Of a stretch of 64,000 nucleotides of DNA, positions 13,935 through 60,100 are shown in pieces. Under the pieces are notes generated by a model that was given only the letters and a program-made list of their open reading frames with translations, did not search any database and was not told where the DNA came from. The stretch covers positions 145,700,001 to 145,764,000 of the forward strand of contig OZ024743.1 in NCBI GenBank assembly GCA_964016885.1. The letters run 5' to 3'. The stretch comes from Eledone cirrhosa. Taxonomy: Eukaryota. The position numbers and the translations under genes were made by a program. Position 1 is the first letter of the stretch. The number at the start of each line of letters is the position of its first letter.

Positions 13935-15530
13935 TTTCTTTTATTTGCCACTAGGGCATCAATAGTGGGACAAGTACAAAGGGGGGAGTTTACACAAAAA
14001 GGCGTCCTCAATAAGGAGGAGGCAATAACAAAATATAAAAATAAAATAAGATATAACAAAAAATAAAATTTTTAACAAAATCCTCAATAGAGAGGAGGCG
14101 CCTTGGGGGGTCGCACACACCCCCGAAAAAAGTGTGCAACCCTTCTCCTCAGGAGCACAGAGAAGGGGTGCTCCCTTGGTCTTTCATCTTCCTCACCTAT
14201 AGTCTGATGTAGAGTGAAGGCCCATTCACACGGGCCATTCTCGCCACTTTCACCCATCTTTCATAGAAACGGCTGGGGTGCAGCACCTCTCTCTCCATCC
14301 TGATCCTTCTTCCGAAATGATATCGGAAGAAACGGACCAGTTGTTGGCCAGAGAGAAAGGTGCCCGACCTCAGTCCTTTCAGACGCGTCCACCATACAAC
14401 CTCTTTCGCCATGGCTATTACGCACAGAAACACCGCCTCTGCTTCATCTTTGAAGGGGGGAGGCGGCTTGATCATTACAATAGACTCGGTGGTCAACCGG
14501 ATCGGTCCCACCCTTGACAGCAGTTGTTCGACATAGCCCCACAGATCGGCTACGCCCGAGCAGTGTACTAATGCGTGTGCAACGGTTTCCTCGTCGCACA
14601 CGCATCTGGGACAGATCTTTTTGGCGGGGTCCCTACCCGGGCGCCCGTGTCTGTAGAGCCTTTCTCGAACGGGTAAAGCCCCTCGGTAGCACTGCCAGGC
14701 CAGGGACTTCTGGAAGTTGTCCATAGGTCCCGGGCTGAATGTCCTACCGAACAGGCTGGCCAGTTCGTCCTCCTCCATGTCTAGGGCTTCTCCGAGGGCG
14801 TCGTCGCACCTGCTGCGTACCAGCCCTCTATAGAATGTTGCGGTGGAGTCTCCACTGATAACCGGATCCGCCTGCCAGAGGGCGGTGAGCGCCTGGGCAC
14901 ACTCAGTGTGCCAGGCGCCCAGTTTTCTCGGTCTTTGCTTGACCCAGGATTGCAGCTCGGTGAGTGAGACGAGTCTGGGAAAGGTTCGTCTCACAAACGA
15001 GGCCCACACCGGTTGTCCGGTGAGGAATACGTAGAGGTGCCGTAGCCTTAATGCGTGTTTACGCATCATTAGCCACGGCATCCCCAGCCCTCCTTTCGAA
15101 GGGTGTTGACAGCAGATGGATCTCCTCACCATAGGAGCCCGCCTCTTCCAAAGGAATTGGAAGAGCGCGCGCTCCATCTTGGTGAGGGTTTCCCTTGGGC
15201 AGGGCACTACGGTCAGGCGGTAGTAGATGACGGACGCTATGTAGGTGTTCGCCACCTCCGCCCGACCTTTCAGGGATAGTTTGCAACTGGCCCACTTCTG
15301 GGTCAGTGCAAACACCCTGTTCGTAACCTCCGCCCAGTTTTTCTCCACCTGGAGGTCCGGTCCGAACCAGACCCCGAGCAACTTCACCGGGCCCTCCGTC
15401 CAGCGTCCGACGACGCCATCGGAGGGCATCGGTCTGCCCCTCCACGTGCCGAGTTGCAAACCGATCGACTTGTCCCGGTTCAGCTTAGCCCCTGTGAACT
15501 TTTCGTACTCCTCCAGTAAGGTGCCGACCG
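13935..15530 (-). mobile_element. 5'-truncated Tx1-clade LINE, copy A
   Basis: Open ORF2 C-terminal half (VKLLGVWF, GGLGMP, CPRC..ETVAHALVHC); 3' UTR ends gtggcaaataaaagaaat into TATC repeats; 5' break also abuts (GATA)n. Confidence 0.9.
14197..15530 (-). CDS. Tx1 ORF2 C-terminal portion (RT thumb, zf-RVT-like CCHC region), uninterrupted
   Basis: Part of ORF 14197..15720; LINE homology starts at VGTLLEEYEKFTGAKLN. Confidence 0.75.
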
Positions 15531-15548
15531 AGATAGATAGATAGATAA

Positions 15549-15622
<74 letters not shown>
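15531..15622 (+). repeat. (GATA)n tract between Tx1 copies A and B
   Basis: Directly visible. Confidence 0.97.
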
Positions 15623-15855
15623 TTCTTTATTTGCCACAAGGGCGGACAAGAAAAGGGGACAATACAAAGACATGCCAGGGATTTTACATACAGTCGTGTA
15701 AAAAATATAAAAACAAACAATTACAAGAATCGAAATCCCCAATAGGGGGGAAGCGTCACAAATGGGTTGTTTAATACCCCGTCGATAGAGCAACCCTCAA
15801 CTCCAGGAGCGTGTTGTGCAAATTCTCCTTTCTTCCTTTTGCTCTCTTCTTCAAC

Positions 15856-18800
15856 CTACAGGCTTATAAACAGAGAAGGCCCAATCACTCGGGCCATTTT
15901 CGCTTCATTCACCCACTTTTCAGTAAATTTACTGGGGTGCAGTGCCTCTCTCTCCACTCTGATTCTCCTTCTAAAGTGATACTTAAAGAAGGGAATCAAT
16001 TGTTGTCCGGAGAAAAAGGCATCTGTCCTCAGTCCTCTCAATCTCGTCCACCATATAACTTCTTCCACCATAGCCACCGTACAGAGGAAAACCGCCTCTC
16101 TTTCGTTTTTGAAAGAGTCTGGCGGTTTGATCCTTACTATGGACTCGGCAGTCAACTGGATTTGTCCCATACGCGACAGCAGTTGTTCTGCGTAGTTCCA
16201 CAGGTCGGTTACGCCCGGGCAGTGTACAATTGCGTGCAGGACTGTTTCAATGTCCTGCGCGCATCTTGGACACGTCCTCTTGGAAGGATCCCTGCCGGGG
16301 CGTCCGTGCCTGTAGATCTTGTCACGAACCGGTAGAGCTCCTCGGTAGCACTGCCAGGCCAGGGACCTCTGGAAGTTGTCCATAGGTCCCGGGCGGGAAT
16401 TCCTACCAAACAGACTGGTGAGCTCATCGTCTTCGACGCCCAGAGTCTCTCCGAGCTCGTCGTCGCCCTTGTAACGTACAATCCCTCTATAGAACGTCGA
16501 CGTGGAGTCTCCACTGATTGCTGCGCCCGCTTTCCAGAGGACTGTGAGCGCCTACAGTGCCCACACTGGTTGGGGGTCGGTGAGGAATACCTGGAGATGC
16601 CGCAGCCTCAGCGCGTGTTTGCGCATCATCAGCCACGGCATTCCCAGCCCTCCGTTTGAAGGGTGCTGACAGCAGACGGATCTCCTCACCAGCGGAGCCT
16701 GCTTCTTCCAAAGGAACTGGAAGAGCATGCGTTCCATCTTGGTGAGGTGTTCACGAGGACAAGGCACGACGGTCAAGCGATAGTAGATGACGGACGCTAT
16801 GAAAGTGTTCGCCACCTCCGCTCGACCTTTCAAGGACAGTTTGCACTCTGCCCACTTCTGGGTGAACGCAAACACCTTGGCCGTGACCTCGTTCCAGTTT
16901 TTCTCCACCTGGAGGTCTGGACCGGACCAGACCCCGAGCAATTACACCGGACCGTCCGTCCAGCGTCCAACGACGCTGTCGGACGTCATCGGTTTGCCTC
17001 TCCACGTACCGAGTTGCAAACTGACAGACTTGTCCGGGTTTAGTTTTGCTCCCGTCAGCGTTTCGTATTCTTTCAGTAAGTTGCTGATCACCCCGATTTC
17101 CGAGGTGCTCGGCACCATTATCGTCACGTCGTCGGCATAAGCCGATGCCGCTTTGCGCAGTCCCGGTTCTAGAGGGATGCCCTGTAACAGCTCCAATTTC
17201 CGCAGTAGTGGCTCTAGAGTCAATACATACAGAATGGAGGAGAGAGGGCACTCCTGTCGAATGGAACGCGTGATTGCGAACGGCTCCGATAGGTAGCCGT
17301 TCACCTTGACCCTCGAGCATATGCTGGTTTTGAATCGCCTCGATCCAGCCTCTGAAAACGGGACCGAAACCGGCCGCCTTGAAGACCTCTTCCAAGTATC
17401 GATGGTAGACCCTATCGAATGCCTTAGACTGATCCAAATTGATCAGAGCCCCACCGAAGCCGGGTTTACTACCCACCCTCTCTATGGTGTATCGCATGAG
17501 GTGGAGGTTGTCGTGTATGGACCTGGTCGGAATTGCATACGTTTGCGCTTTCCCTACCAGGTTCTCGACGACAAGCGCCAACCTCGTCACTAGCACCTTG
17601 GCCAAAATCTTTAACTCTGTGTTGAGCAGATTTATGGGCCTGAAGTTGTTAATTTCGTCCCTCTTGTTCTCGTCTTTCCTGATCAGCGTTACTACCCCCT
17701 TGCCTGCAGAACTGGGAATTCTCCCGTTCTGCTACCAATTGCAGTAGACAGCTTAGATGACCCCAGAGAACAAATCCAGCATGCCTATGTAAAACTCATA
17801 GGGTAGACCATCTAGACCGGGTGACTTGCGTTTCCCGCAGCGACCCAGAGCGTCCCGAATTTCAGTGTCCCTGATCGGTCTTTCGCAGAACTTGGCGTCC
17901 GTGTTCGAGAGACGCGGCAGGCCGTCGAGGTATGAACTAAAGTCCATTGCGCCGTTCGGCTCACCGTCGTTCTGCTCAAACAGTCACGCAAAGTGCTGCT
18001 GAAAGGCCGCGCACATTTGCTTGGCGTCAAGTAGCACGCGTCCGTTTTGGTCTCTCAAAGACCGAATCGTGGACTTGTTGCCACTTTTTGCCTCTGCCAC
18101 TCGGGCCCAGCTGACAGCTTTCGCTCCTTCGTTTCCTAGAGCACGTGTTTTGCTCCTGGCCTTCGTGTTTCGCATCGAAGAACTGGTCCAGTGCCGTTCT
18201 CGACGCTAACACTCTAGCCGCGTTGCCACTTCTAAGTGCCTCCTCTACCTTGGCTACTAGTTCTCTTTCTAGTTTGTTTTTTCTCTAAGGCTAACTCTCT
18301 GCTAAATCCTATCGATTATATTCTAATTGCTTTCTTGAGAGAGTACCACCATCTATTGTTGACGATGGCTCCCGTTAACTGTTGCTTGACTAGTCAACTT
18401 ATCCGTTCACTGTAAGCTTTACGTGCCGGCAACGACACGTTCAGCTTCCAGTATCCGGGTCCTTGTTTATGTGTTCTATCACGGTTGACTAAGCAGACGA
18501 CTAATTTGTGATCTGAATAGGCAACCATGTGCATTCGTTGACAGCTTAACATCTCCTTGTCCCTTTCTCTAATGAAGAACCTATCTAAATACGATCTAGA
18601 TGTCCCGCTGCGGTTTGCCCACGTCCACAGTGGTGCAGTCGGGAAATCCAGTCGATACCTATCGGCCAGTTGGAATCGGCCGATTAAAGTTTTGCGGCTG
18701 TTTCACCCCCACCCCCACCTCCACCTCACCCCACCCCTCTACTGGGACATGCTCCCACATAGTCCTATCGTGCGTCTAGGATACCATTCCAGTCCCCCAC

Positions 18801-19220
18801 TAAAAGTAAGGAGCGAGACGTTCCCAGAAAAGACTCTAGACGCTTAAAGAAGTCTGGCCGTGATTGCGATTGCCCGGTCGGAGCATAAACGGCCACCAGT
18901 CTGAAGGCTCCACCTCCAATACTGTTCACGCCTAGGACTACCAGTCTACTCTCCGGGTCCAAGTGTACTTGCTGTACTTCGACGTCAAGGTTCTTTCGAA
19001 ACATGACAGCCACTCTACCTCCACCTCCTGGCTGACAGAGAGATGCGTAGATCTCAAAGTCGTCGAAGATGGGGGTTAGTTGTTGCCTGTTGTGGATCCT
19101 GGACTCGGTGATGGCTATCACATCCATACCGTGTGACCTAAGGTCGTTTAAAAGTTGGCCCTGTTTCCAGGGCATCCCTAGGCCACGCACATTTACGCTT
19201 CCAACTCGTAAACTAACCAT
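15856..19220 (-). pseudogene. Tx1 ORF2: APE endonuclease, reverse transcriptase, C-terminal zinc finger (disrupted)
   Basis: SVNVRG, IAITES, VYAP, GDWN, SDHK, GPGYWKLN, KSPGLDGLPYEFY, LDQSKAFDRV, RQECPLS, YADD, CPRC..ETVLHAIVHC across frameshifted ORFs. Confidence 0.9.
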
Positions 19221-19261
19221 GTTGGTGAAGAAGAGTTGGAGAAAAAGGACGAAAGGTGCAC

Positions 19262-20828
19262 TTACCTTTTCGTTTCCTGGAGATCGGGTTGTTCAATCTC
19301 CATTTGGGTGCTGGATGGGGTGTTGGGTGGGGTGGGGAAACATTTTAACAGGACGCGGTTGATGGGTTTATGGCAGAGGCTGCCCACGTCCTGTGAAAAT
19401 TTATTTTTCAGGTCATTATAGGTTTCCATAGAAACCCTTATAAGTTTAAGGTGTGGAGACGATTCTGCCTTGACGAAAGTTTTGCCCTCCGTCTCCACCT
19501 TGGAGTTTTGGGAGATGACCTCCATCAAACTCTTGTTGTTTGTGTTGATGTATGCGCATTGTTGTTTGTGTTTTTGTTGTGTTGTTTTAGTTTTTTGTTC
19601 ATCCGGGAGTTTTCTTTTTATGGTGGGTGCTTGTATTTGGGTGGTGTTGGTGTTGGTTTTGCTGGTAGGGGGATGTTTGACTGTGGTGTTGTTTATGTTG
19701 TTGTTTGTGTCTGTGGTTGTGTGTTGGTGTTGGTGATTGGAGTTTTGGGGGCTTTGTGGTGTCTCTTTTTTTGTTTTTTTAGATTTCCACGGCTCTCCCC
19801 CTTCTTCATTTAAAGAAGGAGAAGCAGCTTCATCCGTCGATGAATAATCATCGTCAGGTGTGTGGGGTAGGGTTATGTTGTGTGGTGGTGGTGTTTCGGT
19901 GTGTGTGTTTGTAGTAGTGTTTGAGGGAGTGGGATGGGGTGGGCTGTGTTCTTCAGGGGTGTTGTCTCTGTTTTTTCTGTTGTTGTTGGTTGAGTGTCTG
20001 TTTGTTTTGGTGTGGTTGCTCGTTTCGTCTGTCGTTGTACTTGTGGTGGTGGTGTTGGTTGTTTTGGTGTTGGTGTTGGTAATAGTGTTTTTTTAATGAT
20101 GTTGTTGTTGTGTGTTTGTGAAGGACAAGAGGTTTTTAGGTGTGCTGTGCTACCACAGCGAAAGCAATGAAATTTTCGTCCTTCTACCGAAATGTTTATT
20201 TTGTTGTTATCATCGATGACGACTCTTTCGGGTATTTTGGAGAATCTCTCCGACCTCATTTGCAACAGAGTCTCTAAATCAGTACCCGTCCACCTTTGTC
20301 GAATAGACTTTCGTATCGAAAGAATCATATCAGTTTCTGGCTCTACGAAGCCAGCCAAGATCCACCAGATGTTAATGTTTGGGGGTATATATATTTTTTT
20401 TATTTGTGTCCTTTTTCCCATGTATCTAGGGAAAAAGGTGAATGCTTTTGACACCATTGGTGTCACAGAATATTTTTGGGCGAGTGTCTCGCTTTTAAAC
20501 AGTACTGAAACACTTCCGTACTGTTTTCCTTGTTGGAGTAAATCGATATTTGCTAGAATTTCCTTGAAAGTAGCTTCTATATCTGCTTGGCTAACAAATA
20601 TCAGCTTTCTCGTGGAATTGGACACAGTCCTAAAGGTGACTGATCTTCGAACTGTGTCTTCCTTTAAAGGGGTGAGTTAATTCTAAATCCACCTTTCTCT
20701 TCGAACGTTACAAATTTTCTCCCTTGCTGGAGCATATCTCTTGCATTGGAGATGTCAAGATTTATAAAATCTTGTTTTTTGTTCAGTTTCAGCGAAAGAC
20801 ATTTTCTTTTTTTTTGGTGTGGTGTTGC

Positions 20829-20874
<46 letters not shown>

Positions 20875-21210
20875 ATCGTTATCGTTGTTAGCCTCGGTAT
20901 TGGAAATCTCAGTTCCTTGACGAGGTGAAACATTATGTGTAGATGAATCTGTGGAGTTGTTGATGTCTTTTTCATGTGTATGTATGTTAATAGGTTTAAT
21001 TTCTGTGTTTTCATGTGAGTTAGTGTTATTTTTCTCCGCTTCGGCGGTAGGAATTGTACAATTTTCGAGTGGTAACATTTTTTTCTCTTTGTTGACAGTC
21101 GTATCTATGACAACGTCCATAGTAGCAGAAGCAGATATAACGTTGAAATCTGCCTCTTTCTCTCTATTTTCTCTATTGACGTTCTCCAGCGTTCCCTTCG
21201 TGTTATTCAT
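19262..21210 (-). pseudogene. Tx1 ORF1 (gag-like nucleic-acid-binding protein, disrupted)
   Basis: CFRCGSTAHLKTSC zinc knuckle (CX2CX4HX4C), Asn/Thr/Pro low-complexity linkers; lies upstream of ORF2. Confidence 0.8.
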
Positions 21211-21416
21211 GTTTGCAAAATTTGATATTTTAAAACAATTTTTAAATTAAATTTTCGCCCCTAAAGGGGAGAAAAATGGGATTACTACGCAGCTGACAAT
21301 TCAGCTTGGGGGTTAATCTACAAAATAATATGTTTTTTCAAACAATTTGTTCTGTTTTTCGTATATAAATTTACAAAAAATCTTACCGGCGATGTTTCAC
21401 GCGTCAGACAGAAAGA

Positions 21417-21417
21417 G

Positions 21418-21489
<72 letters not shown>
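21417..21489 (+). repeat. (GATA)n tract between Tx1 copies B and C
   Basis: Directly visible. Confidence 0.97.
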
Positions 21490-22627
21490 TTCTTTATTAG
21501 CCACAAGGGCGCAACAAGAAAGGGGACAATACAAAGACATGCCGGGGATTTTACATACAGTCGTGTAAAAAATATAAAAACAAACAATTTCAACAATCGA
21601 AATCCCCAATGGGGGGGAGGCGCCACAAATGGGTTGTTTAATACCCCGTCGATAGAACAACCCTCAGCTCGAGGAGCGTGTTGTACAAGTGCTCCTTTCT
21701 TCCTTTTGCTCTCTTCCTCAACCTAAAGGCTTATACACAGAGAAGGCCCAATCACTCGGGCCATTTTCGCTTCATTCACCCACCTTTCAGTAAATTTACT
21801 GGGGTGCAGTGCCTCTCTCTCCACCCTGATTCTCCTTCTAAAGTGATACTTAAAGAAGGGAATCAATTGTTGTCCGGAGAGAAAGGCATCTGTCCTCAGT
21901 CCTCTCAACCTCGTCCACCATATAACTTCTTTCACCATAGCCACCGTACAGAAGAAAACCGCCTCTCTTTCGTTTTTGAAAGAGTCTGGCGGTTTGATCC
22001 TTACTATGGACTCGGCAGTCAACTGTATTTGTCCCATACGCGACAGCAGTTGTTCTGCATAGTTCCACAGGTCGCTTACGCCCGGGCAGTGTACAATTGC
22101 GTGCAGAACTGTTTCAATGTCCTGCGCACATCTTGGACACGTCCTCTTGGAAGGATCCCTGCCAGGGCGTCCGTGCCTGTAGATCTTGTCACGAACCGGT
22201 AGAGCTCCTCGGTAGCACTGCCAGGCCAGGGACCTCTGGAAGTTGTCCATAGGTCCCGGGCGGAAAGTCCTACCAAACAGACTGGTGAGCTCATCGTCTT
22301 CGACGCCCAGAGTCTCTCCGAGCACGTCGTCGCCCTTGTAACGTACAATCCCTCTATAGAATGTCGAAGTGGAGTCTCCACTGATTGCTGCGCCCGCTTG
22401 CCAGAGGACTGTGAGCGCCTGAGCGCATTCAATGTGCCAGGCGCCCATCGTTTTCGGTCTTTTCTTCACCCAGGACTGCAGCTCCGTTAGCGAGACGAGC
22501 TGTGGGAAAGCCTGTCTCACAAACGGTGCCCACACCGGTTGGGGGTCGGTGAGGAATACCTGGAGATGCCGCAGCCTCAGCGCATGTTTGCGCATTCCCA
22601 GCCCTCCGTTGGAAGGGTGCTGACAGC
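21490..22627 (-). mobile_element. 5'-truncated Tx1-clade LINE, copy C (same subfamily as B)
   Basis: Near-identical to 15623-16670; 5' break abuts (GATA)n at 22628-22651. Confidence 0.92.
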
Positions 22628-22819
22628 GATAGATAGATAGATAGATAGATATGTGTGTGTGTTTGTGTGTGTGTCTGTCTGTCTGTGTGTGTGTGTATTT
22701 GGAAAATGGCTTACTAAACACTTCAAATCTCTTTTCCTTCTATATTAAATGTTAAACTAATGTATATTTTCATTGTACTGTATCATTTCCCTGTATTGTT
22801 TATCCGTATATTTTCACAT

Positions 22820-25861: not shown

Positions 25862-25899
<38 letters not shown>

Positions 25900-25980
25900 G
25901 TTATTCCGGGTTGAAACGGAGGTAACCACAGTAAGTAAGGTACTCAATACATAGTAGAGTATAACAGTTTTAATATAGAT

Positions 25981-26033
25981 GAGATTCTACAGGACTAGAA
26001 CTGTTTCATTCATAAGAAATCATCAGGAATCCC
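25981..26033 (-). ncRNA. Type I hammerhead ribozyme motif
   Basis: GGGAUUC-CUGAUGA-u UUC uuau GAA u-GAAA-CAG uucuaguc CUG-UA-GAAUCUC: full core, 7-bp stem I (one G-U), paired stem III, GUA triplet. Confidence 0.82.
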
Positions 26034-26078
26034 TGATGATTTCTTATGAATGAAACAGTTCTAGTCCTGTAGAATCTC
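26033..26078 (+). ncRNA. Hammerhead core copy lacking its own 5' stem I strand
   Basis: Same core and stems II/III as 25981-26033, but preceded by gaatcc rather than gattc. Confidence 0.6.
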
Positions 26079-26089
26079 ATCTATATTAA

Positions 26090-26161
<72 letters not shown>

Positions 26162-26164
<3 letters not shown>

Positions 26165-26210
26165 TCCTGATGATTTCTTATGAATGAAACAGTTCTAGTC
26201 CTGTAGAATC
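26162..26210 (+). ncRNA. Type I hammerhead ribozyme motif (third copy)
   Basis: GAUUC-CUGAUGA...GAAA-CAG...CUG-UA-GAAUC between (TA)n tracts. Confidence 0.8.
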
Positions 26211-26223
26211 TCATCTATATTAA

Positions 26224-26371
<148 letters not shown>

Positions 26372-32072: not shown

Positions 32073-35000
32073 CTAGCTGACGTACCCAGCTTCGCCCGGG
32101 TAAGCAGATGATAAAAGAAGACAGGTAAAAGAGAAAATGACTGTATTGGATGTTTAACTGGTTACAGTATGAGGCGAGTCCGTGGTGTCTGTGTGATACA
32201 AAAAACACTAAAAAAAATCTTCCAGATATACCAGATTCTTCATTGTACCGTTTGTGCATAGTATATGAACAATTCTAGGCGCTCCCACCTAGAATAGTGA
32301 CCTCTAGGAGATGGTTCATCTTCTGCCTGACTGTAAAACGTGTATCATTGCATAGACGTGGTTGTTCCACGTTTCTCAAAAGGATGATGGAAGTTCCAAT
32401 CTTTTATATTATATGTAGATATAGATATAGATAATTAATATAAAAGATGTCCTTCAATGTAAAAAAGGTCCCTATTTACTTGAAATAGTTTATACAAATG
32501 CCAAATTAATATGGATATGGATAACATGCTTATCTATAAGTGGTCAGCTATAATAATAAAACAACAAATTATATGACACAAAAATTTATTCAGTAATTTC
32601 CAGGCTCTTAGCCACTGAGTAATAGACGGTCAATGTTACCCAGAGTTCAACTCGGGGAGGTGGCCTTCTACTTCAAAAATAGAATCGTTTTTCAATATTA
32701 CTCTAGCCCTGGCCGGCCATAGGATCTAACCTTTTTGCTAGACTCAGCATATGATGAGGTTTTATTACCACCGCAATCAGAAGCGATAAATTTGAAGACA
32801 ATTTCTACCAATACTTGTTGGTATTTATTGCGCAACATAGCAGTGAAAGCAATTTATACCAATACTTGTTTGTTTTTATTGCTCATAACGACATTAAATG
32901 ACATTGAACGTAAATGATAACTCTGTCAAAGCTCACAATACTGATCAAAGGACACCAATATCCGAATCATTTACGTCGTTTATTGATAGCATTAAAGATA
33001 TGCATACATCAGCTCAAAGCTTCATTATAGACAATATTCAGGGTTGTTCTTCTGTTAGTGGTATCAATTGCAAATGTTATACCATCAGGATCGCACACTT
33101 GAGATGCAGCAACATACAGTTGCCCATGGCTGACTGCTGGATCATTCAAGTAGACACCGACTCGCTTGAAAGTCTGTCCCTGTGCCTTGTTGGCAGTCAT
33201 GGAGAAGGCCAAATTGACGGGAAACTGTCTCCTTTGCCAAATGAATGGCAGCAGATTCTTCCCTTGGTCTCAGCATGATCCTCGGAATGAGAACCGATTC
33301 CTCTCTGCCTGGGAGTTTATCTTCTAAAACCGTTAATCAATCTCTCAACAATCAATCTGGTACCATTGCAAAGACCCATTTTATGATTGATATTTCTAAG
33401 CAATATAAGCGGCATACCCTTTTTCAACCTCAAAATATGTGGGGGAAATCCGGGTATTTGAAGTGAATTCAGATACTCAGTCGGAACATCCATATTGTTC
33501 TGCTGATTATGCTCCATTGCATCCGCACTGACGGTCAACTATTCCTCTCCAGGAAACATTCCGGCTACTTGTGAATTTATTTCATCGACCGTTGCATTCG
33601 TATGAGTTAGAATAACGCGTTCCGATATCCAGGAGATATTCTACCAAAAAGCATTCAAATTAGGGAACACCCAGTCAATCAATGCTTGGCGGTCCAGTGG
33701 CATGACCAAATGGTCTGGGATTCTTACAGTCTGATTATCACCAACGTGTGGCAATTCATCGTTTCCCAACTGCGTCAACCATCGGCCGTATGTCTCAGCC
33801 TCTTCGTTTTTGCCCGAACATACGAAGTCGCATATTATCGTGTAATCGCAAAACTCTGAAATGGCGTTACAATGGGGTCTTTTTCAGACATGCATCGACA
33901 ATTTGCGTTCTTTGAGCATTCCTAACAATTGGTAGCACCTGTCTGAAATCGCCACCAAGAACTGAATGGCAGGTCACTACCGCAGATATCTCTGAAAGAT
34001 CTGTCCAATGCCTCCAGCAAATATATGTGTGCCATTGGAGCCTCGTCCCAAATAATCAGAGACGTATTGCGTATAAGGCCCGTGAGTTCACTTTGTCCTG
34101 TAATGTTACAGACACTCAACTCATCCGGAGCCAATGGAGCCTTGAAGCATGAATGGAAGGTCCTTCCATCACTCAGCAAAGTGCCAGCGATCCCACTGGT
34201 GGCCACAGGGAGAGCAATCTTCCTCTGAGCTCTGCCTGTCGATAACATAGTGTTGAAACAGAATGTCTTTCCGGTGCCTCCTGGAGCATCTATGAAAGCA
34301 CAAAGTTGCTCATTAGTGGAAATCGAATGGAGAACGCCATCGACCAATTCTCTCTGAGATTGGGTCAACATTGGCATACGTTCATCCACAATACGTTGCT
34401 GTTCCAGTGGATCAAACTGGAATAGTTCCCTCCGATCGAGTGGCAACCGTCTTAGCTGCAATCTCATGTTCAATGCTAAGAGTTGCCGCATTTCTTCATC
34501 AGGAATTGGCAAATTGAAATCTGTTAAACATTTGAAATGAACTTCAAGCAGTTGCTCAATATTGAGCAAAACAATAGCTTTCATCAAATTTTCATCATCG
34601 ACCTGAAGATGATGCCTAAAATCATCAGCCATAATTCCCCAATCGGCAGGATTGCAGAATCCTAGAATCGTGACAAACAAATGCCTTATTTGAGATGGCA
34701 TCTGTGTTGTTCCTGCAGCTTCCATGGCGTTATTCCATTCAGCGTCATCCTGAAGGAGTCCCAGATGCACACACACAGCCTGGTATGTTTCATATTCCAC
34801 GCCATTGATTGTTTTCAAATCAGCGAAGCTCTGTTTACCTCTCGAAAAATCACTATGCAACAGAATTCGGAGATAAAACACATCATCAGATGCTGGATGG
34901 ACATTACAAACCCGTCCAATAGTCATGAATCTCAACTTTTGTTTTCTATCATTCCATTTCTTTCCCTTCTTATCCCACGTATAGTGCGAAGGGAAATCGC

Positions 35001-38000
35001 AGTAGAGTTGCCTTTCATCCGGGTTCAAAGCATGTTCCCTATTATGCTTGAACCACTGTCAATTCCGTCTTAGGTGGTGGTGCGTTAGCAATTCTTTCGA
35101 CACCTATTCTAGTGTCCTGAAAACAGACCATTTGCCTATTCTCTAACTGAACCGTCAGTTTCTGAACGCTGGGTTTGCGTTCATTGAGATCAAAATCGAA
35201 CAATCTCCAGCAAGCTTCGCTAGATCCAATCGAGCGAACATCCTGGAACCTGCCAACTTCATCTCCTTGGTTCGCTTCCTCATTCCTGACATTGATCATT
35301 GCCCGATCATGACCTTTGTAAACATATTTGAATAGATATTTGCAAGCTTTCACTGAGCTACAAATTTCCACATTAATATGACAACGATATTTCATAATCA
35401 AATATGGATTGTATGGCACAACCCATTGATTAGTAACCTGTCTACCGTTTACATTTTCGACCAAACCGCCATCTGCAGGCGACCGTTTTCTGTATGAGGG
35501 ATGAGCATCCCCTTCGGTCCAGGAAGTGTTCGTGACAAAATATTTCTGAAAGTGCTTACTGCATTGGCCATTTTTCATGCAAGGCGCTTTCCGATTTGCT
35601 ACTCTGCATTGGTTGTGCACCATTGACTTTGCCACCAAGTTGCGTAGTGCCTCATTCTCCGGCAGTTCAGCACACACAATGCTGTCGACATCCTCAGCAC
35701 ATCTCAATTTGCAATCTCTATGTAAAATGATCAGCAAATGTGCATGTGGCAATCCTCTTTTTTGGAATTCCTCCAAAGATTCTCTCTTTTTCCACATCAT
35801 CCATTATCTTTTTCAGATATCCTTTGAATACTCTTGCCACAATATCAGGACGGTTCTTTGGCTGTTGTCCTGGCAAAAGTGCATCCTTAATATCAGTCCA
35901 TTCAGGATTGCATGTAACCGTTATAAACAAATCTGGCTTTCCAAACTTTCTGACAATAGCCATTGCATCCTGATAGCGAATGTTCATATATCTCGGGCCG
36001 CCGATGAACGACGATAGCAAAATGATGCGTCCACCAATTTGCTTGTAATTGGCATCATCGGCTGTTATCGCATCCTGTATATTATTATACAATTCAGCTC
36101 TGATATGTTGCTGATGTGTAGCTATATAATTTAGCCTTTGATTTTCGATCTTTGCGAATGCCATACAACAGTATTCCTGGAACAATCTGCTGGCTTGAAA
36201 TAGCGCATTTCTCTGTTGATTCCTCTCGTTCAAATGGAACGCGTAAAAGTCGCGAATCGAATTATTGTGTCTATTGCCACCTCCCTGCTGATGCTGATTC
36301 TCATGATCATCGAAATGAACAGACATGTTCCATCCATTTTCACCTTTTGGGAATAAAAGAACATAATGCAATGGATTGTATGCCCTATTTGACTCATTGA
36401 TAGTTTTGAGATCACCATCTCTGAGATTGAGGACGATATCTCTCGATCCAGGCTTATCGTCCATCAACACAGCAACTTCACGAAATCCTTCAGGGGCATT
36501 ATATCGCCGTTCGTGTTGATTCCTTGGCACTGCGTCAGCCTTAATCACCAATGTTTGCTGTTAAACATTTTGCAGTTCAGCCACCAACATGAAATCCATA
36601 ACATAAGGATTACACTGTCTAAGCCATGGTTGCAAATCACAAATGAAATCACTTAACCTTTGCCGTTCAAGTTCAGTTATATTTCCAGGCAACTTCATCC
36701 AACCGATCCTGATATCCTCCTCCGATTCACTATAATCTGGATCGTTAACGTAAATTTGAGCGAATCGAGGCCTCTCTCTTGGGGTAACTTCTAAATTACC
36801 GATACAATGATACAAACGGCCTTGAATGACTACATTCGGTTGCCATGCTCCACTCTCAAACATCTCACTAACTCTCTGCGATGCTAAAGATAATGAATTG
36901 TTAATTTGCCGCGAATATTTGCGCAGTAATTTACCTCGGTCTCCTTGATCACCTCACATACTTAGTATTTTAAACTCCGGTGACTCCTCATCATCCGGCA
37001 TTCGCAAGGGTTCTAGTTGAACTGCTCCTTTATGACAGCACATTGTGGTCCACGTCTTTTCGTGCCTCCAAAGCAATGCTCCATAATGTGGACACTCTGC
37101 TCGTCCATCTGAAAATGACACGGTTGACATGATCCATTTTTAATATCATACGTACGCCTTCTAGACTCTTTACTGGAATGAGGAGCACTTTGGCGACACA
37201 TTCTCTGAACTTCTGTATTGCGCTGGCGCTGTTCAGCCAGCTCCTCTTCATCCATCGCAGCACGCCGTTGCTGCTGAATTCTGACCATCTGCTGATGATG
37301 CTCAGCCAGTTCGTCTTCAACCATCGCAGCACGCCGTCGCTGCTTGGCTCCAGTGTTTCGTTGGCGTTGTTCATCAGCTCCTCTTCATTCATGGCGGCAC
37401 GTCTTCGCCTCTGAAGTTCGGCGTTCCCATGGCACTGTTCGACCCGTTTGTTTTCATTGCTGGTTGTACGCCGCCGCCGCTGTAGTTCACTGTTTGATAA
37501 AGTTGAATTGCTTTCATTATCAGTATTCATTTCGAGCAATTGTCAAAAGATGACACAATAATAAATATAAAAGATGTCCGTCAATGTAAAGAAAGGTCCC
37601 TATTTACTCCCTTCACAACTCTGTGTATGTTAGACTGACAGACAGGCACACAGACAGATAAACTGCGTGGCGATTGTGGAACACCACACACGTACACGCA
37701 TGGAAACGCGCACACGCACGCAAACGTACACACACACACACTCACACATGTTGATAGTTTTTACTTTCTGTGGAACGCTGCACGCACGCACACACACATA
37801 AACATACGCGCACGTACATACACACGCACACATGTTAATAGTTATTGAACACAGCGTTCACACTCTCCCCTCTCATTCCCTCATTGGCATTATGCATATT
37901 AATTTAAGTTTGGCGTCGTTGAGGTGGGCGGAGTCATTTGAAACCTATGAACCAATGATAATCGAGAATTATGACCAACGGAATACTGACGTTCTTCAAA

Positions 38001-43420: not shown

Positions 43421-44436
43421 AAGAATAGAGAGAATTATTTTTTTAAATACAATAGTCAAGACAAATTCTGACAAAAGATTAATATTTTATGGTGAATAAG
43501 AAGGTGAAGGTGAGGGTTTAGTATGATGATAGTGATGGAGTCGATAGCTACTTGGTGGCGGTGGGGTGTTAAGGTGTTGATGGTTTCGTTGTGACGTTAA
43601 CAGCTGTAGTAAAAAAAAAATAGATAACAGTGGCAATGGCTTCTGATTGTTATAGTTATTTCGTTATTAATGTTGATGTATAGTAATCTGCACTAAACTC
43701 TACTCGAACAGACATATGCTTGAATAGAAACCCCGTCGTTCCATCGACATTTTTCATGTTAGAATCCCGTCTACGTTGTTATTATTGTTGGTGAGGATTT
43801 GTTTAACCCTAGCGAACAATGATCAAGCCGACTTATAATCAAAGCGTTCCAACCACGATCATGCAACCTTATTTTCAGAAAATGTGTTCAGGATTACATC
43901 AGCCGATCCAATATAACCTTTTTTTCCCAAAATGGTACGGTGTCATCTGTTGAAAATGGCTGCTGTTTCTAAAACGACTACGTAGAGACTTTCCTGTTAA
44001 TTTGTTCCGCCTGAGATTTGTGAATACAGTCCTTAAGATTAAGTCGGTTGGAAGATTTTTTTTTATGTTTTATGGAGTTGTGCTGATACACATATGAATA
44101 GTGTAGAAATATGTATAACGACATCTATCCTGTTTTGGAAATAGTATGCTGTTTTTATTGCAGGAAAATAGATACATAGGCAGATATTTATAGTAGAAAT
44201 CCGAGTTATGGTTTCCCAACTTTTTCCTACCGAAAAATTGTCAATTCGGAAGAGTCGGCTAACAATCGAAAATCTATTGTTATTGTGGCGTTTGTCCAGT
44301 TCTCCAGTTGTCATTGTTTTCTTTCGTATGCATACTGTTACGTTTTCCACGTGCTTGTGTTTTGTCCTGTTTTCCACTCATGCCCAATGATGTAATAGTT
44401 ATCTATAAATATCTGCCTATAATATCTGCCTAATAT

Positions 44437-45340
44437 CTGATCAGCATTACTACGCCCCTGCCTGCAGAACTGGGAATTCTCCCGTTCTCCTGCCAGTTGC
44501 AGTAGACGGCTTTGAGGAGGCCAGAGAACAAGTCCGGCATGCCTATGTAAAACTCGTAGAGTAGACCATATAGACCGGGTGATTTGCCTTTCTCGCAGCG
44601 GCCCAGAGCGTCCCAGAGCGTCCCGTATCTCAGTGGCTGTGACCAGTCTTTCGCAGAACTCGGCGTCCATGCTCGAGAGACGCGACAGGCCGTCGAGGTA
44701 TGAACCGAAGTCTATTGCCTCGTTCGGCGCACCGTCGCTCTGCTCGAACAGTTGCGCAAAGTGCCGCTGAAAGGCCGTGCACATCCGCTTGGAGACAGAC
44801 AGATAGGCAGATAGGCAGATAGATAGGTAGATAAATATAGAGTCAGATATATAGACATATAAATGCTGTTTTTATTGCAGGAAAATAGATATTTTCCTGC
44901 AATAAAAACAGCATTTATATGTCTATATATCTGACTCTATATTTATCTACCTATCTATCTGCCTATCTGCCTATCTGTCTGTCTCCAAGCGGATGTGCAC
45001 GGCCTTTCAGCGGCACTTTGCGCAACTGTTCGAGCAGAGCGACGGTGCGCCGAACGAGGCAATAGACTTCGGTTCATACCTCGACGGCCTGTCGCGTCTC
45101 TCGAGCATGGACGCCGAGTTCTGCGAAAGACTGGTCACAGCCACTGAGATACGGGACGCTCTGGGACGCTCTGGGCCGCTGCGAGAAAGGCAAATCACCC
45201 GGTCTATATGGTCTACTCTACGAGTTTTACATAGGCATGCCGGACTTGTTCTCTGGCCTCCTCAAAGCCGTCTACTGCAACTGGCAGGAGAACGGGAGAA
45301 TTCCCAGTTCTGCAGGCAGGGGCGTAGTAATGCTGATCAG
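44437..45340. repeat. ~451-bp-arm palindrome with 2-nt spacer
   Basis: 44437-44887 is the reverse complement of 44890-45340; identical ORFs on both strands in the ORF track. Confidence 0.93.
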
Positions 45341-47504
45341 GAAAGACGAGAACAAGGGGGGCGAACTAAGCAACTTTAGGCCCATAACTCTGCTCAACAC
45401 GTAACTCTGCTCAACTCTGCCCGTGGGAATTTAAAGATTTTGGCCAAGGTGTTGGCAACCAGATTGGCGCTTACTATCGAGTACCTGGTAGAGAAAGCAC
45501 AAACGTGTGCAATCCCGACGAGGTCCATACACGACAACCTCCACCTCATGCGATACATAATAGAGAGGGTGGGGCGTAAACCCGGCTTCGGTGGAGCTCT
45601 GATCAATTTAGATCAGTCTAAGGCATTCGATAGGGTCGACCATCGATACTTGGAAGCGGTTCTCAATGCGGCTGGTTTCGGACCCGTCTTCAGAGGCTGG
45701 ATCGCTGCAATGCACACCAACATCTGCTCGACGGTCAAGGTGAACTGCTACCTATCGGATCCATTCGCAATCACGCGTTCCATCCGACAGGGATGCCCTC
45801 TCTCCTCCATTCTGTACGTGTTGACTCTGGAGCTACTACTGCGGAAGTTGGAGCTGCTGCAGGGCATCCCGTTGAAACCGGGACTGCGGAAAGCGGCGTC
45901 GGCTTATGCCGACGACGTGACAGTAATGGTGTCGGAAACCTCGGAAATCGGGGCGATCGGCAACTTACTGCAGGAATACGAAAGGCTCACAGGAGCAAAA
46001 CTGAACCCGGACAAGTCTGTCGGTTTGCAGCTCGGAACGTGGAGAGGCAAACCGATGCCGTCCGACGACGCTGTCGGATGCTGGACGGACTGACCAGTGT
46101 AATTGCTCGGGGTCTGGTTCGGTCCGGACCTCCAGGTGGAGAAAAACTGGAACGAGGTCACGGCCAAGTTATTTGCGTTCACCCAGAAGTGGGCAGAGTG
46201 CAAACTATCCTTGAAAGATCGAGTGGAGGTGGCGAACACTTTCATAGCGTCCGTCATCTACTATCGCTTGACCGTCGTGCCTTGTCCCCGTGAACACCTC
46301 ACCAAGATGGAACGCATGCTCTTCCAGTTCCTTTGGAAGAAGCAGGCTCCACTGATGAGGAGATCCGTCTTCTGTCAGTACCCTTCCAACGGAGGGCTGG
46401 GAATGCCGTGGCTGATGATGTGCAAACATGCGCTGAGGCTACGGCATCTCCAGGTATTCTTCACCGACCAACCGGTGTGGGCACCGTTTGTGAGACAGGC
46501 CTTCCCGCAACTTGTCTCGCTGATGGAGCTGCAGTCCTGGGTCAAGAGGCGACTGAAGAAGATGGGCGCCTGGCACATTGAATGCGCTCAGGCGCTCACA
46601 GTCAAGCGGGCACAGCAATCAGTGGAGACTCCACTTCGACATTCTATAGAAGGTTAGTACATCACAAAGGCGACGACGTGCTCGGAGAGACTCTGGGCGT
46701 CAAAGACGACGAACTCACCAGTCTGTTTGGTAGGACTTTCCGCCCGGGACCTATGGACAACTTCCAGAGGTCCCTGGCCTGGCAGTGTTACCGAGGAGCT
46801 CTACCAGTTCGAGACAAGATCTACAGACTCGGACGCCCCGGCAGGCATCCAAGAGGACGTGTCCAGGATGCGAGCAGGACATTGAAACTATCTTGCATGC
46901 AATTGTACACTGCCCGGGCGTAACCGACCTGTGGAACTACGCAGAACAACTGCTGTCTCGTATGGGACAAATTCAGTTGACCGCCGAGTTCATAGTAAGG
47001 ATCAAACCGCCAACTTCTTTCAAAAACGAATGAGAGGCGGTTTTCCTCTGTACGGTGGCTATGGTGGAAGAAGTTATATGGTGGACGAGATTGAGAGGAC
47101 TGAGGACAGATGCCTTTCTCTCCGGACAACAACTCATTCCCTTCTTTATTTGCCACTTTAGAAGGATAATCAGAGTGGAGAGAGAGGCACTGCACCCCAG
47201 TAAATTTACTGAAAGGTGGGTGAATGTAGCAAAAATGGCGCGGGTGATTGGGCCTTCTCTGTATATAAGCCTGTAGGTTAAAGAAGAGAGCAAAAGGAGC
47301 ACTTGCACAACACGCTCCTGGAGTTGAGGATTGTTCTATCGACGGGGTATTAAACAACCCATTTGTGGCGTCTCCCCCCTATTGGGGATTTCGATTGTTA
47401 AATTTGTTTGTTTCAATATTTTTACACGACTGTATGTAAAATCCCCGGCATGTGTCTTTGTTTTTTCCCCCTTTCTTGTGCGCCCTTGTGGCAAATAAAG
47501 AAAT
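44985..47504 (+). mobile_element. 5'-truncated Tx1-clade LINE, copy D (subfamily of B/C)
   Basis: LDQSKAFDRVDH, RQGCPLS, YADD and C-terminal zinc finger; 3' end ggcaaataaagaaat; both flanks are degenerate TATC/TGTC repeats. Confidence 0.92.
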
Positions 47505-50367: not shown

Positions 50368-50402
<35 letters not shown>

Positions 50403-50553
50403 ATACTTTGGGAGGGTCATGTTGCCAATAAGAAACACACGCACCAGTTGCTTTCACTTCAATCTAATTTATTATATATTTATAAATTTACAAATTTATA
50501 AATTTCTGGTTGGTTGGTTGGTTCCACAACCAGATAGTTGTTTATATATATAT

Positions 50554-50598
50554 AGTCATAGTTCTTTCGTCACACACTCTGTGACCTCTTCAGTGACT
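50554..50598 (-). ncRNA. Type I minimal hammerhead ribozyme motif
   Basis: AGUCA-CUGAAGA-g GUCAC agagugu GUGAC-GAAA-G aa C-UA-UGACU: full core, perfect 5-bp stems I and II, minimal stem III. Confidence 0.78.
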
Positions 50599-50714
50599 GG
50601 GGATTTCTTTCTTCGTTTCTGAACCTTTCCTTTCTAACAATATCCAAAGTATAACAATATCGGTTTCAACACACGATTTCAGATAAAGAATCTTGCTAAA
50701 CAAATTCAGAAACG

Positions 50715-50772
<58 letters not shown>

Positions 50773-50776
<4 letters not shown>

Positions 50777-51503
50777 GAAAGGTATAGAAATTGTTGTAGC
50801 GAGAAGCTAACAGTATTCCATAACATATATGCGACTATGGCGTCAAGATGGGTAAAATAGTTAACGTAAGATGTAGGGAAAATAATTCAAACTCATTTCA
50901 AAAGAGAATCAGGATATAAATTCATCCACAGAATTTAGTGAAATCCAGGGAAAAATCAATAGAGCCTTAACTCATGATAAAATAAAGTCTAAAATACTTA
51001 TCCTTCAATTTGGAAAAACATCAAATGCTCTGTATAGTCTTAAAGACTATTTCATGAAAACTTTCAGTGGAGATGGTCACGGTTGGATTTCAATCGTCAG
51101 CAGATCTCAACCAGATAACCAGGACTCTCACAGATTTATAAGCCAAAAAGGGAATTTTAAAACTGGCTAGTTCACCATCATGCGTGATTATGAAAAACGC
51201 ACATGAGGAAAAACGGGGCTAGTGACGTCAGAATGAAGCGAATGTTTGTTTACAAGAAATAACAGTCAAATACATTCTGAAAAAAACTCTACAAAAGGAG
51301 TTCAGCAAAAAGCAATATTATCGCAGTTTTTATTAAAAAAACCGGGATTAGTCACAAATAATTTAAGCACTCTAGGAAAAAAATCCGAGTATAAATATAT
51401 AAATGAAAGGGATAGAAATTGTTGTAGCGAGAAGCTAACAGTATTCCATAACATATATGCGACTATGGCGTCAAGATGGGTAAAATAGTTAACGTAAGAT
51501 GTA
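50773..51503 (-). mobile_element. Hammerhead-bearing non-coding element with 103-bp terminal direct repeats (628-bp period), retrozyme/Penelope-like
   Basis: 50773-50875 repeats at 51401-51503 (one mismatch seen); flanked both sides by (TA)n; contains the hammerhead at 51029-51104. Confidence 0.7.
51029..51104 (-). ncRNA. Type I hammerhead ribozyme motif with long loop II and stable stem III
   Basis: UCUG-CUGACGA-u UGAAA (~28 nt) UUUCA u-GAAA-UAGUCU uua AGACUA-UA-CAGA. Confidence 0.75.
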
Positions 51504-51528
51504 TATATATATATATTATATATATATA

Positions 51529-51625
<97 letters not shown>

Positions 51626-51662
51626 GGATTGGACACTACCGTAAACTCTTGGTAGATTTATC

Positions 51663-51723
<61 letters not shown>

Positions 51724-57112: not shown

Positions 57113-60100
57113 CCATGCCTGTAGAGTTGGAAAGACCACTTACCAGCAAATTGTTGGGAAGGGAGCACTTCCCTCTCCACCCTGATTTTCCTTTTCAAAT
57201 GAAATTTGAAAAAGTTAACCAGGCATCACCGAAGAGGTAAGTGCTCGTCTTCAGCCCTTTCAAACGCGTCCACCACGCGCAAATGCTGCAGCGCAGTCAG
57301 GCGAGGCTTAGGACAAGGCTCGGCGGTCAGGCGGTAGTAGATGACGGACGCGACTTACGCGTTCGCCACCTCCGCTCGACCTTTCAAGGATAGCTTCCCC
57401 TCAGCCCATTTTGGGGAGAGAGGCCACCCTGCACATCAACTCGTGCCAGTTTTTTGCCCGTCTGGAGGTTCGGACCGAACAATTTAACCGGTCCGTCCGT
57501 CCAGAACCCGACGACGCTGTTGGACGGCCTGGACCTGCCTCTCCAGGTGCCGAGCCGCAGGCCTGCCGACTTTTCCTGATTAATCATTGCTCCTGTCACC
57601 GCCTCGTATTCTCTTAGTGTAGTGACGATCGCCTCGATATGTTTGGTACTCGACACCACTACGGTGACGTCGTCGGCATATACTGACACGGTTCTCCCGC
57701 ATCCCAATTCGCACGGGATATCCCTCAACGTCTCCAGTTTGTGCAGTAATGGCTCGAGATCAATACGTACAAAATGGACGAGAAGGGACATCCTTGGCAA
57801 CTGAGCGCATGATGTTGAACGGTTCCGAAAGGTGACCGTTCACTCTAACCACAGAACAGATGTCGCTGTGCATGGCAGCGATCCAGACTCTGAAGACGGT
57901 CCAAAGCCGCCCGCCCTCAGGCCCACCGCCAGATAACGATGGTCGACACTATCGAAATCTTTCGACTGATCTAAATTGATCGGAGCCAGGTTCGTTAGCT
58001 ACCTGTGCCAGGTTCGTTAGCTACACTCTCCACGATGTATCGCATGAGGTGGAGGTTGTCGTGGATGGATCTGTCTGGAATGGCACATGTCTGCACCTCT
58101 CCCACCAGACCACTGACGACTGGCGCCAACCTCTTTACTAGCACCTTGGCCAAAATCTTGAACTCTGCGTTTAGCAGAGTTATAGGCCAGAAATTTCCTA
58201 TGTTCTCCCTCATGTTCGGGTCCTTTCTCAGCAGCTTTACCGCTCCTCGGCTCACAGAGCTGTGAATTCTCCCGTTCTGCGGCCAATTGCAGTAGACGTC
58301 CGCCAAGAGGTCGCAGGACAAGTCTGGCATGTGTACGTAAAGCTCGTAGGGCAGACCATCCAAACCAGGCGTTTTACCCATCGTGCAGTCAGTCATTGCT
58401 ACCCGTACTTCAGCAGCTGTTATCGGCTTTTCGCAACACTCCGCCTCAATCGCCGAGAGCCGCTGTAGACCGTCGAGGTAGGCACTAAAGTCCATCCTGC
58501 GATCCGACCCACCGCTGCCCCCTAACAGCTGAGGGTAGTGCCGCTGAAAAGCTGCACACATTTGCCCGGGTTCAAGTTACATGTGCCCGTTGTGGTCCTC
58601 CAACTCGAGGCTTTGTTGCCACGACGCGCCTCCGCCACATGGGCTCATCGAACGATTCTCGTTCCCTCGTGTCTGAGAGCAACCGCACTCGCTCTGACAA
58701 CGCAGCGTTCGTGATTTGCGTTGAATAATTGGTTGAGGGCCAATCTCGCCGCAAGTACGTCGGTCGCGATGCCTTTACTAAGCGCCTCGTCTAATTTTCT
58801 AAATCGTTCTCCCTTTGCTCTATTTTTCTCTATTGCTAACGCCTTACTAAACCTAATCGTCTCTATTCTAATCACCTTTTTCAGGGCGAACCACCATTTG
58901 TTGTTGACGACTGCCCCCGTCAACGCCCACTTAACTAGTTCGCTATTCCGGTCTCTGTAGGCTTTGCGCGTTGTCAGCAACGCGTTTAGCTTCCATTTGC
59001 CGGGTCCCTGTCTATGAAGCCTATCTAAGTCGACTACACAGATCACGAATTTGTGGTCCGTGTAGTCGACTATCTTGAATTGCGACAACCTATGCTAGAA
59101 CTATCTACTTCCTTACAAAATACTCTATCTAGATACGATCTGGATGACCCGATGCGGTTTGTCCATGTCCACATTGGTACATTCGAGAAATCCAGTCGGT
59201 ATCTGTCAGACTGTTGGAAACTTCTGAGCAGGTTTGTGAGGCTTTTACACCCTCATTCCCTATCCGCTGATCCTACACAATCTCAGCGTGCATCCAAGAT
59301 CCCGTTCCAATCGCCCACTAACATTAAAGAGCAGGAAGTTCTCTAGTCGCCTGGAGAAATCAGACCGCCCTGCCCCTGTCGGAACATAAACAGCCACTAG
59401 CCTAAAAGCATAGCCTTCACTGCTGGTCACGTCCAGCACCACCAACTTACCTTCTGGGTCCAGGAAGATTGTCCGTATCACGAGATCCAGACCTCTCCGA
59501 AACACAGCGCCTCCACCTCCCGATCCCAGCCGGTTTGGAGATGCGCACACATCGTAACCGCCGAAGATGGGTGCGAAGGCATGTGCCTCTGAAATTCTGC
59601 TCTCGCTGATGGCCACTACATCTATGTTCATTGACCTGAGATCGTTGAGCAGGTGACCCTGCTTCCATGACAACCCCAGGCCGCGTGCATTTATGCTGCC
59701 TATTCTGAGTAAGCTCATGTTGAAAAGAAGTGGGAAAAGATGGGAAAGACTACTTACCTCAGTTCTTGTGGAGAAAGCATGGTTTTTCCGTCATTCTGAC
59801 TATTTGTGGTCCTCTCCGGAAGGATGTCTTTATATATCCTTTTGGAAAGTGTTTGCCGGAAATCTCTGATGTCCTTCGGGAATTTTTCTTTAGGGCTGTG
59901 TATGTTTTCTGTGAGATAAATGTGATTTGTATGTGTGGCTGGTATGAATTTTGCGGTTGTTGTGTTGTTTTCCTCTGTGATGCTGGTGTTGTGTTGGATG
60001 TAGTGTAATAATTGTTTATTGTCATGCTTAATGCCGTGAAGTGTTTCGTTTTGGTCGTTTTGTTGCGTTGTTGTGGTTGCACGTGTGGGTTTGTTTCTGT

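What the first reader, a model, noticed from the sequence alone, without database searches (positions are those of the whole stretch)
50773..51503. 1.16-mer of a 628-bp hammerhead-containing monomer inserted in (TA)n
The first 103 bp are repeated almost perfectly at the end, both ends abut (TA)n, and there is no meaningful ORF. A complete hammerhead lies inside the unit rather than at its edge (51029-51104, minus strand; 6-bp stem III, long loop II, AUA site near 51033). Terminal redundancy with an internal cleavage site is what reverse transcription running more than once around a circular RNA would leave. This is the clearest retrozyme-like insertion in the window, and the monomer looks long compared with the few-hundred-nt animal retrozymes I recall.
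Basis: partly seen in the sequence, partly recalled or inferred. Interest (0 to 1): 0.8.

Follow-up and report, generated by a model that had tools for sequence, protein, structure and literature searches.

The report
Ribozyme retroelement with fixed copying start
This is one of thousands of copies of a non-coding, hammerhead-ribozyme-bearing mobile repeat that sits in TA microsatellites with one fixed end and one random end, a known kind of element (animal retrozyme) whose copy pattern suggests it is likely reverse-transcribed round a circular RNA by a Penelope-type enzyme.

Summary
The 103-bp repeats match at 102 of 103 bases, the period is 628 bp, both flanks are (TA)n, no coding frame is recognisable, and a type I hammerhead lies on the minus strand. 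The insert belongs to a large family (3,291 exact terminal motifs in a 3-Gb genome) of 20-bp stubs, 1.x-mers and arrays of up to 42 units.

Copies are not free circular permutations. The RNA-sense 3' end is fixed (113 of 120 insertions start at unit base 1-4) and the 5' end is random, so '103 bp' is only this copy's truncation point and LTR/TRIM is refuted. Copying passes the cleavage site (0 of 100 copies stop there). Units within one insertion share a haplotype. The ribozyme core is conserved, with only N7 free and a compensatory stem II change.

Best reading: a non-autonomous Penelope-mobilised retrozyme, target-primed from an internal site, likely on a religated circle; an uncleaved multimer template is not excluded. 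No RNA data were available, no partner element was identified, and a 628-bp unit is within the published range. This copy has one ribozyme with a stem I mismatch and is probably a dead end.

The parts
50717..50773 (.). (TA)n target tract at the fixed (RNA 3') end
50774..51503 (-). whole insertion: one 628-bp unit plus 102 bp of a second; RNA sense is the minus strand
50774..51401 (-). full 628-bp unit; 50774 is the fixed family end, the inferred start of reverse transcription
50820..50830 (-). internal TA-rich site (unit bases about 47-57): hotspot for the variable end, almost never a start
   Evidence: 35 of 79 unselected ends at unit base 54-57; 1 copy genome-wide starts there
51027..51106 (-). 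type I hammerhead: stem I 51106-51101/51032-51027 (mismatch at 51105 in this copy), core CUGACGA 51100-51094, U.U 51093:51054, stem II 51092-51088/51059-51055, GAAA 51053-51050, stem III 51049-51044/51040-51035
51032..51033 (-). predicted cleavage site, 3' of A17 (AUA), 259 nt upstream of the fixed end
   Evidence: hammerhead consensus
51082..51111 (-). possible pseudoknot, GUUG 51111-51108 with loop II CAAC 51085-51082 (conserved, no covariation; inference)
51223..51230 (-). TGACGTCA, a CRE-like word (label recalled); promoter role untested
   Evidence: intact in 27 of 33 diverse units
51390..51401 (-). conserved 12-nt TA-rich unit junction next to the fixed end; inferred priming site
   Evidence: 329 exact junction matches; 28 of 33 diverse units identical
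51402..51503 (-). 102-bp 5'-truncated second unit (pseudo-LTR-like); its length is specific to this copy
51502..51719 (.). (TA)n tract at the variable (5'-truncated) end, interrupted by a 42-bp repeat

Best explanation
The insert is a 5'-truncated copy of a non-coding, hammerhead-bearing tandem retroelement family with one fixed end at (TA)n, likely mobilised by a Penelope-like reverse transcriptase/endonuclease that would start at an internal TA-rich site and copy more than once round a self-cleaved, religated 628-nt circular RNA. Shown: fixed 3' end, random 5' end, TA targeting, read-through of the cleavage site, one haplotype per insertion, a conserved ribozyme, and intact RT plus GIY-YIG elements in the genome. 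Inferred: (1) sources with two or more ribozymes are transcribed on the minus strand; (2) the hammerheads cut out unit-length RNA and a ligase closes it; (3) the Penelope-like protein nicks (TA)n and primes at the unit junction, 259 nt downstream of the cut; (4) synthesis stops at random, often where the cDNA end can pair with target TA. This copy stopped after 730 nt. It has one ribozyme with a weakened stem I and could not release a monomer by itself.
For: Left end at unit base 1-4 in 113 of 120 insertions, including those found with internal queries. Right ends run from base 24 to 628. 51 of 79 unselected copies are 60 bp or shorter and 9 of 79 exceed one unit. 0 of the first 100 of 1,639 matches over the cleavage site stop there; 153 units pass it and one stops at base 263; the junction has no insertion in 105 sequences. 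Adjacent units are discordant at 84 of 1,724 shared polymorphic sites (4.9%) against 25.4% for random partners. Eight locus-private alleles are shared by both copies in 45 1.x-mers, against 0.0035 per cross-locus pair. Young insertions have 0-3 differences between units. Polymorphic columns: 1 of 36 in core plus stems I and III against 105 of 524 elsewhere (p=0.004). N7 takes C, G or U. A stem II pair is U-A in 22 and C-G in 11 sequences. RT plus GIY-YIG ORFs are present, and two such families carry a sense hammerhead roughly 150-200 nt before a (TA)n end. Internal initiation by a Penelope-like RT (PMC11167929) and circular retrozyme RNAs in other animals (PMC7229834) are published.
Against: No RNA, circle or cleavage was observed. 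No autonomous partner shares detectable sequence with the unit (16 ORF ends tested; best hit a 22-bp match). In vitro, a Penelope-like element did not need its hammerhead and used unprocessed RNA. Haplotype sharing could also come from homogeneous source arrays, gene conversion or rare unsampled subfamilies, and arrays of two or more units show later local duplication. The circular fold is only moderately stable (z -4.3, -2.6, -1.0 in three units), and the consensus fold shows almost no covariation outside the ribozyme. The predicted pair probability of stem II is 0.03 in the commonest copy and stem I is 0.0 in this copy. The stem II compensatory change is probably one event. Two copies (L073, L243) start elsewhere without (TA)n.
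Confidence: 0.6

Rival explanations
1. Same family and enzyme, but the template is an uncleaved linear multimeric transcript from tandem sources. RT starts internally at a junction, and the hammerhead acts at another step or is carried along.
For: Hammerhead mutants did not affect insertion in vitro and no RNA-seq reads ended at the cleavage site for an anole element (PMC11167929). Long arrays exist (42 units, 7.45 units). An earlier AI note (e1-7810660, unchecked) reports a similar tandem pattern for a unit without a ribozyme.
Against: Many distinct haplotypes are each fixed across all units of an insertion. 5' truncation alone would shorten multimers every generation (inference). There is no sharp peak of 5' ends as a fixed transcript start would give. 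The ribozyme is conserved across subfamilies 10-13% apart.
Confidence: 0.27
2. RT copies a linear self-cleaved monomer and jumps from its 5' end to the 3' end of the same molecule, giving tandem cDNA without a covalent circle.
For: It explains read-through and one haplotype per insertion.
Against: The cleavage junction is base-perfect with no inserted bases in 105 sequences, and almost no copies stop there. Jumps are usually leaky and imprecise (recalled).
Confidence: 0.07
3. Truncated 3' tails (pseudo-LTRs) of an ordinary autonomous Penelope-like element.
For: The end structure is the same as in autonomous families here. The partner may have been missed, since only top-scoring or first-listed copies were read.
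Against: In the copies read that extend past unit base 616, the sequence runs into (TA)n or the next unit, never an ORF; the junction is fixed in 329 exact matches.
Confidence: 0.04
4. LTR/TRIM-like element with fixed 103-bp repeats, or a satellite spread only by DNA recombination.
For: Some arrays were expanded locally.
Against: Repeat length differs from copy to copy and most copies are shorter than one unit. Even the 42-unit array keeps the fixed end and (TA)n flanks.
Confidence: 0.02

Closest known systems
Non-LTR retrozymes of animals (Cervera & de la Pena 2020, PMC7229834; Li, Clavereau & Pollet 2026, 10.64898/2026.07.22.740005)
   Same: Non-coding, low-GC (33%) tandem units with one type I hammerhead each; monomers to long arrays; co-occurrence with Penelope-like elements. 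A U.U at the base of stem II also occurs in axolotl HHR_Amex2.
   Different: Stem III has 6 bp plus A-U rather than 1-2 bp, so it should not need to dimerise (inference). Loop II is 28 nt. The unit is longer than the 170-400 nt of the 2020 paper but inside the 51-972 bp of the 2026 preprint. Most copies here are dispersed truncated insertions, not arrays. Expression and circles are untested.
Endonuclease-positive Penelope-like elements and their non-autonomous partners such as MRC1 (Craig et al. 2021, PMC8557442; Frangieh et al. 2024, PMC11167929)
   Same: Fixed 3' end, 5' truncation, partial tandems forming pseudo-LTRs, occasional inverted 5' pieces, microsatellite targeting without visible target duplication, internal start of copying.
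   Different: No ORF, and no sequence link to an autonomous family was found. One start site is seen rather than the two that give the 30-40-bp tail.
Hammerheads of fungal and protist Penelope-like elements (Cervera & de la Pena 2014, PMC4209133)
   Same: Type I with a long helix III, active as monomers.
   Different: Found here in an animal, in an ORF-less tandem unit; no sequence comparison was made.

Membership tests
non-LTR retrozyme | type I hammerhead in each unit | tested here: met
   no Rfam model matches
non-LTR retrozyme | head-to-tail tandem units, dimers to multimers | tested here: met
non-LTR retrozyme | non-coding, low GC, no fixed LTR pair | tested here: met
   PBS and PPT were not searched separately
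non-LTR retrozyme | co-occurring autonomous Penelope-like elements | tested here: met
non-LTR retrozyme | highly self-paired monomer circle | tested here: inconclusive
   z -4.3, -2.6, -1.0 with 25 shuffles each; weak consensus fold
non-LTR retrozyme | self-cleavage and circular RNA in vivo | not testable with these tools
   needs a cleavage assay and RNA data
non-autonomous Penelope-like element | fixed 3' end, variable 5' truncation, partial tandem | tested here: met
non-autonomous Penelope-like element | microsatellite/AT-rich target | tested here: met
   (TA)n on the left in nearly all regions; a TA run on the right in 60 of 79
non-autonomous Penelope-like element | 3' end homologous to an autonomous partner | tested here: inconclusive
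   none among 16 ORF ends and 46 loci, out of 10,595 GIY-YIG candidates
LTR retrozyme / TRIM | fixed-length terminal repeats, type III hammerhead in the LTRs | tested here: not met
   variable repeat length; single internal type I motif
autonomous Penelope-like element | RT plus GIY-YIG ORF | tested here: not met

The most novel reading that the evidence does not exclude
The family records in the genome the step that has been proposed for animal retrozymes since 2014-2020: a Penelope-type enzyme starts at one exact internal site on a ribozyme-made RNA circle, rolls through the sealed cleavage junction and lays down identical units. Its monomer-competent long-stem-III hammerhead and very young copies would make it a direct test system.
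Probability: 0.45. Interest if true: 0.62.

Novelty: new member of a known kind. Interest (0 to 1): 0.4.

Why it matters
The class is known, but how animal retrozymes are copied back into the genome is stated as a hypothesis in the papers read (PMC4209133, PMC7229834, the 2026 preprint), and the one in vitro study found the hammerhead dispensable (PMC11167929). This family gives a mapped start site, read-through of the cleavage site, single-template insertions and very young copies with identical units. That makes the circle-versus-multimer question testable with a few RNA experiments. The window copy itself is an ordinary truncated insertion.

Tried and rejected
Free circular permutation: rejected, one end is fixed. 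Priming at any TA-rich site: rejected, 1 copy starts at the second TA site against 3,291 terminal motifs. Run-off from a linear cleaved monomer: rejected. Dimeric-circle template for alternating arrays: rejected. In L251 and L252 only the inner units repeat while the outer ones differ, which fits later local duplication; two of these arrays had been picked because alternate units lacked the search pattern. Growth by random units inserting into junctions: rejected by haplotype concordance. Homology to the C-terminus of a GIY-YIG ORF (22-bp match): not above shuffled scores. TATA box at 51140: intact in only 12 of 33 units, so not claimed; the bacterial promoter scan is not relevant. Rfam: nothing. 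Sequencing runs: no RNA holder listed, three runs from one study hold the unit; no reads were laid, so polymorphism and expression are open. Target-site duplications cannot be read inside (TA)n. Earlier findings by sequence and by place: none. PMC12602865 passages were not informative.

Full report
Observation. The insert at 50774-51503 is one 628-bp unit plus 102 bp of a second, between (TA)n tracts. No frame is recognisably coding. A descriptor scan of the whole window gave three hammerhead candidates, one of them this minus-strand motif with A17 at 51033; Rfam finds nothing. Unit positions below count from 50774 on the plus strand, so RNA sense runs from high to low.

Family. The window lies in a 3.0-Gb genome, G000. 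The terminal motif has 3,291 exact matches with 0 for the reversed control, the cleavage-site motif 1,639 and the unit junction 329. These are lower bounds because each pattern misses some subfamilies. Subfamilies 87-98% identical to the window unit have units of about 625-646 bp. Arrays of 42 and 7.45 units occur and keep the same ends.

Ends. Among 120 distinct insertions over 60 bp, 113 begin at unit base 1-4. Of the other seven, three start at base 1 with an internal deletion or rearrangement, one is a continuation after a nested insert, one is an inverted piece, and two (L073, L243) are unexplained. Part of this set was found with terminal queries and is biased, but the copies found with internal queries behave alike. 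Right ends spread from base 24 to 628. I followed the first 100 terminal matches on contig C1; 79 distinct starts were scored, after leaving out internal junctions, loci fetched earlier and duplicate rows. Of these, 51 are 60 bp or shorter, 35 end at base 54-57 (a TA-rich internal site; a few of these end slightly earlier and drift into the target TA), 9 exceed one unit, and 60 have a TA run on the right. Only one copy genome-wide starts at that second TA site, so the start is specific and not simply any TA. This is the target-primed pattern of Penelope-like elements (PMC8557442, passages).

Cleavage site. None of the first 100 of 1,639 matches stops at the site. 153 units pass it, one copy ends at base 263, and no bases are inserted there in 105 distinct sequences. 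The template is therefore continuous across the site: a circle, an uncleaved multimer, or a very precise jump.

One template per insertion. Outside four long-array regions that were left out, adjacent units differ by 2.7% against 5.8% between loci, and by 4.9% (84 of 1,724) against 25.4% at shared polymorphic sites. In 45 1.x-mers, which local duplication cannot create from a sub-unit copy, 8 alleles seen nowhere else are shared by both copies (6 insertions) and 68 are unshared; the cross-locus control gives 7 in 1,980 pairs. A young subfamily has insertions with 0-3 differences between units, several with their own haplotype. Against over-reading: longer arrays show later block duplication, gene conversion is possible, and 'private' is relative to about 120 sampled insertions.

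Ribozyme. In 105 distinct sequences the 12 core positions average 98.9% identity, while N7 is C, G or U. Polymorphic columns number 1 of 36 in core plus stems I and III against 105 of 524 elsewhere (p=0.004; 62 rows, not fully independent). On 34 hand-picked diverse sequences, 94.6% of cells pair, and one stem II pair is U-A in 22 and C-G in 11, probably one event; the outermost stem II pair fails in 20 of 34. The U.U at the base of stem II is tolerated in active hammerheads (PMC3088659, passages) and present in an axolotl retrozyme (PMC7229834); the young subfamily has A-U there. The window copy's A51105 drops the predicted stem I probability from 0.37 to 0.0, and stem II is not favoured by the energy model in either copy. 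Activity is untested.

Partner. GIY-YIG domains are abundant (10,595 candidates, 150 scored), and two of four ORFs scanned carry RT plus GIY-YIG. Two families have a sense hammerhead roughly 150-200 nt before a (TA)n end, one with the same U.U (read by eye). None of 16 ORF ends aligns to the unit above shuffles. The partner is inferred, not identified.

Mechanism and rivals. The circle is preferred because it explains read-through, single-haplotype multimers, their regeneration despite truncation, and selection on the ribozyme together. The uncleaved-multimer rival stays open because an anole Penelope-like protein initiated internally and did not need its hammerhead in vitro (PMC11167929). I put membership of the retrozyme/non-autonomous Penelope class at about 0.9 and the circle mechanism at 0.6.

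Literature seen. Li et al. 2026 preprint: parts 1-3 of 5, abstract to discussion. PMC7229834: parts 2-4 of 6. PMC4209133: parts 1-2 of 4. PMC11167929: parts 1-2 of 4. PMC8557442, PMC3088659 and PMC12602865: passages. In these texts the circular template is proposed and I saw no junction mapping for retrozymes; searches listed no such study. No supplements were read; those of PMC7229834 and the preprint may hold junction data.

Verdict. Real, and a new member of a known kind, with useful genomic evidence on an open mechanistic point. Interest 0.4.

Noticed in passing
window 50397-50635 (minus): 3' end of another hammerhead-bearing family, 84% identical to the UTR behind a GIY-YIG ORF in L032 and hit in 34 loci. 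Its hammerhead (about 50600-50555) was read by eye and missed by my scan.
   Followed up: partly
window 25899-26230: Second hammerhead family (U.U at the base of stem II, GUA site), with two copies in inverted orientation around (TA)n; hit in 37 loci.
   Followed up: partly
window 51624-51665: 42-bp repeat between TA tracts, 100% identical in L121 (twice, near an 830-aa Penelope-like ORF) and in L154.
   Followed up: partly
L112, L126, L148, L157, L041: Other hammerhead families in the flanks, several in tandem (spacing about 459-511 bp), one with an 8-bp stem III. The genome seems to hold many retrozyme families.
   Followed up: no
L164, 3' UTR after about 4197: Penelope-like 3' UTR with a possible U3-A8 core-variant hammerhead, read by eye.
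   Followed up: no
G000:C4:175240218-175266192 (L122-L124): 26-kb array of 42 units with a recurring variant lacking bases 124-195, i.e. higher-order repeats. Another long array lies at G000:C2:378.11-378.14 Mb.
   Followed up: partly
L073 and L243: Two copies that start at unit base 419 and 404 without (TA)n; deletion or an alternative start is unresolved.
   Followed up: partly
window 14197-22739, 44338-46657, 57384-59790 and 33922-37542: Decayed non-LTR (endonuclease plus RT) elements and a Helitron-like helicase/Rep region, judged by eye from the translations.
   Followed up: no
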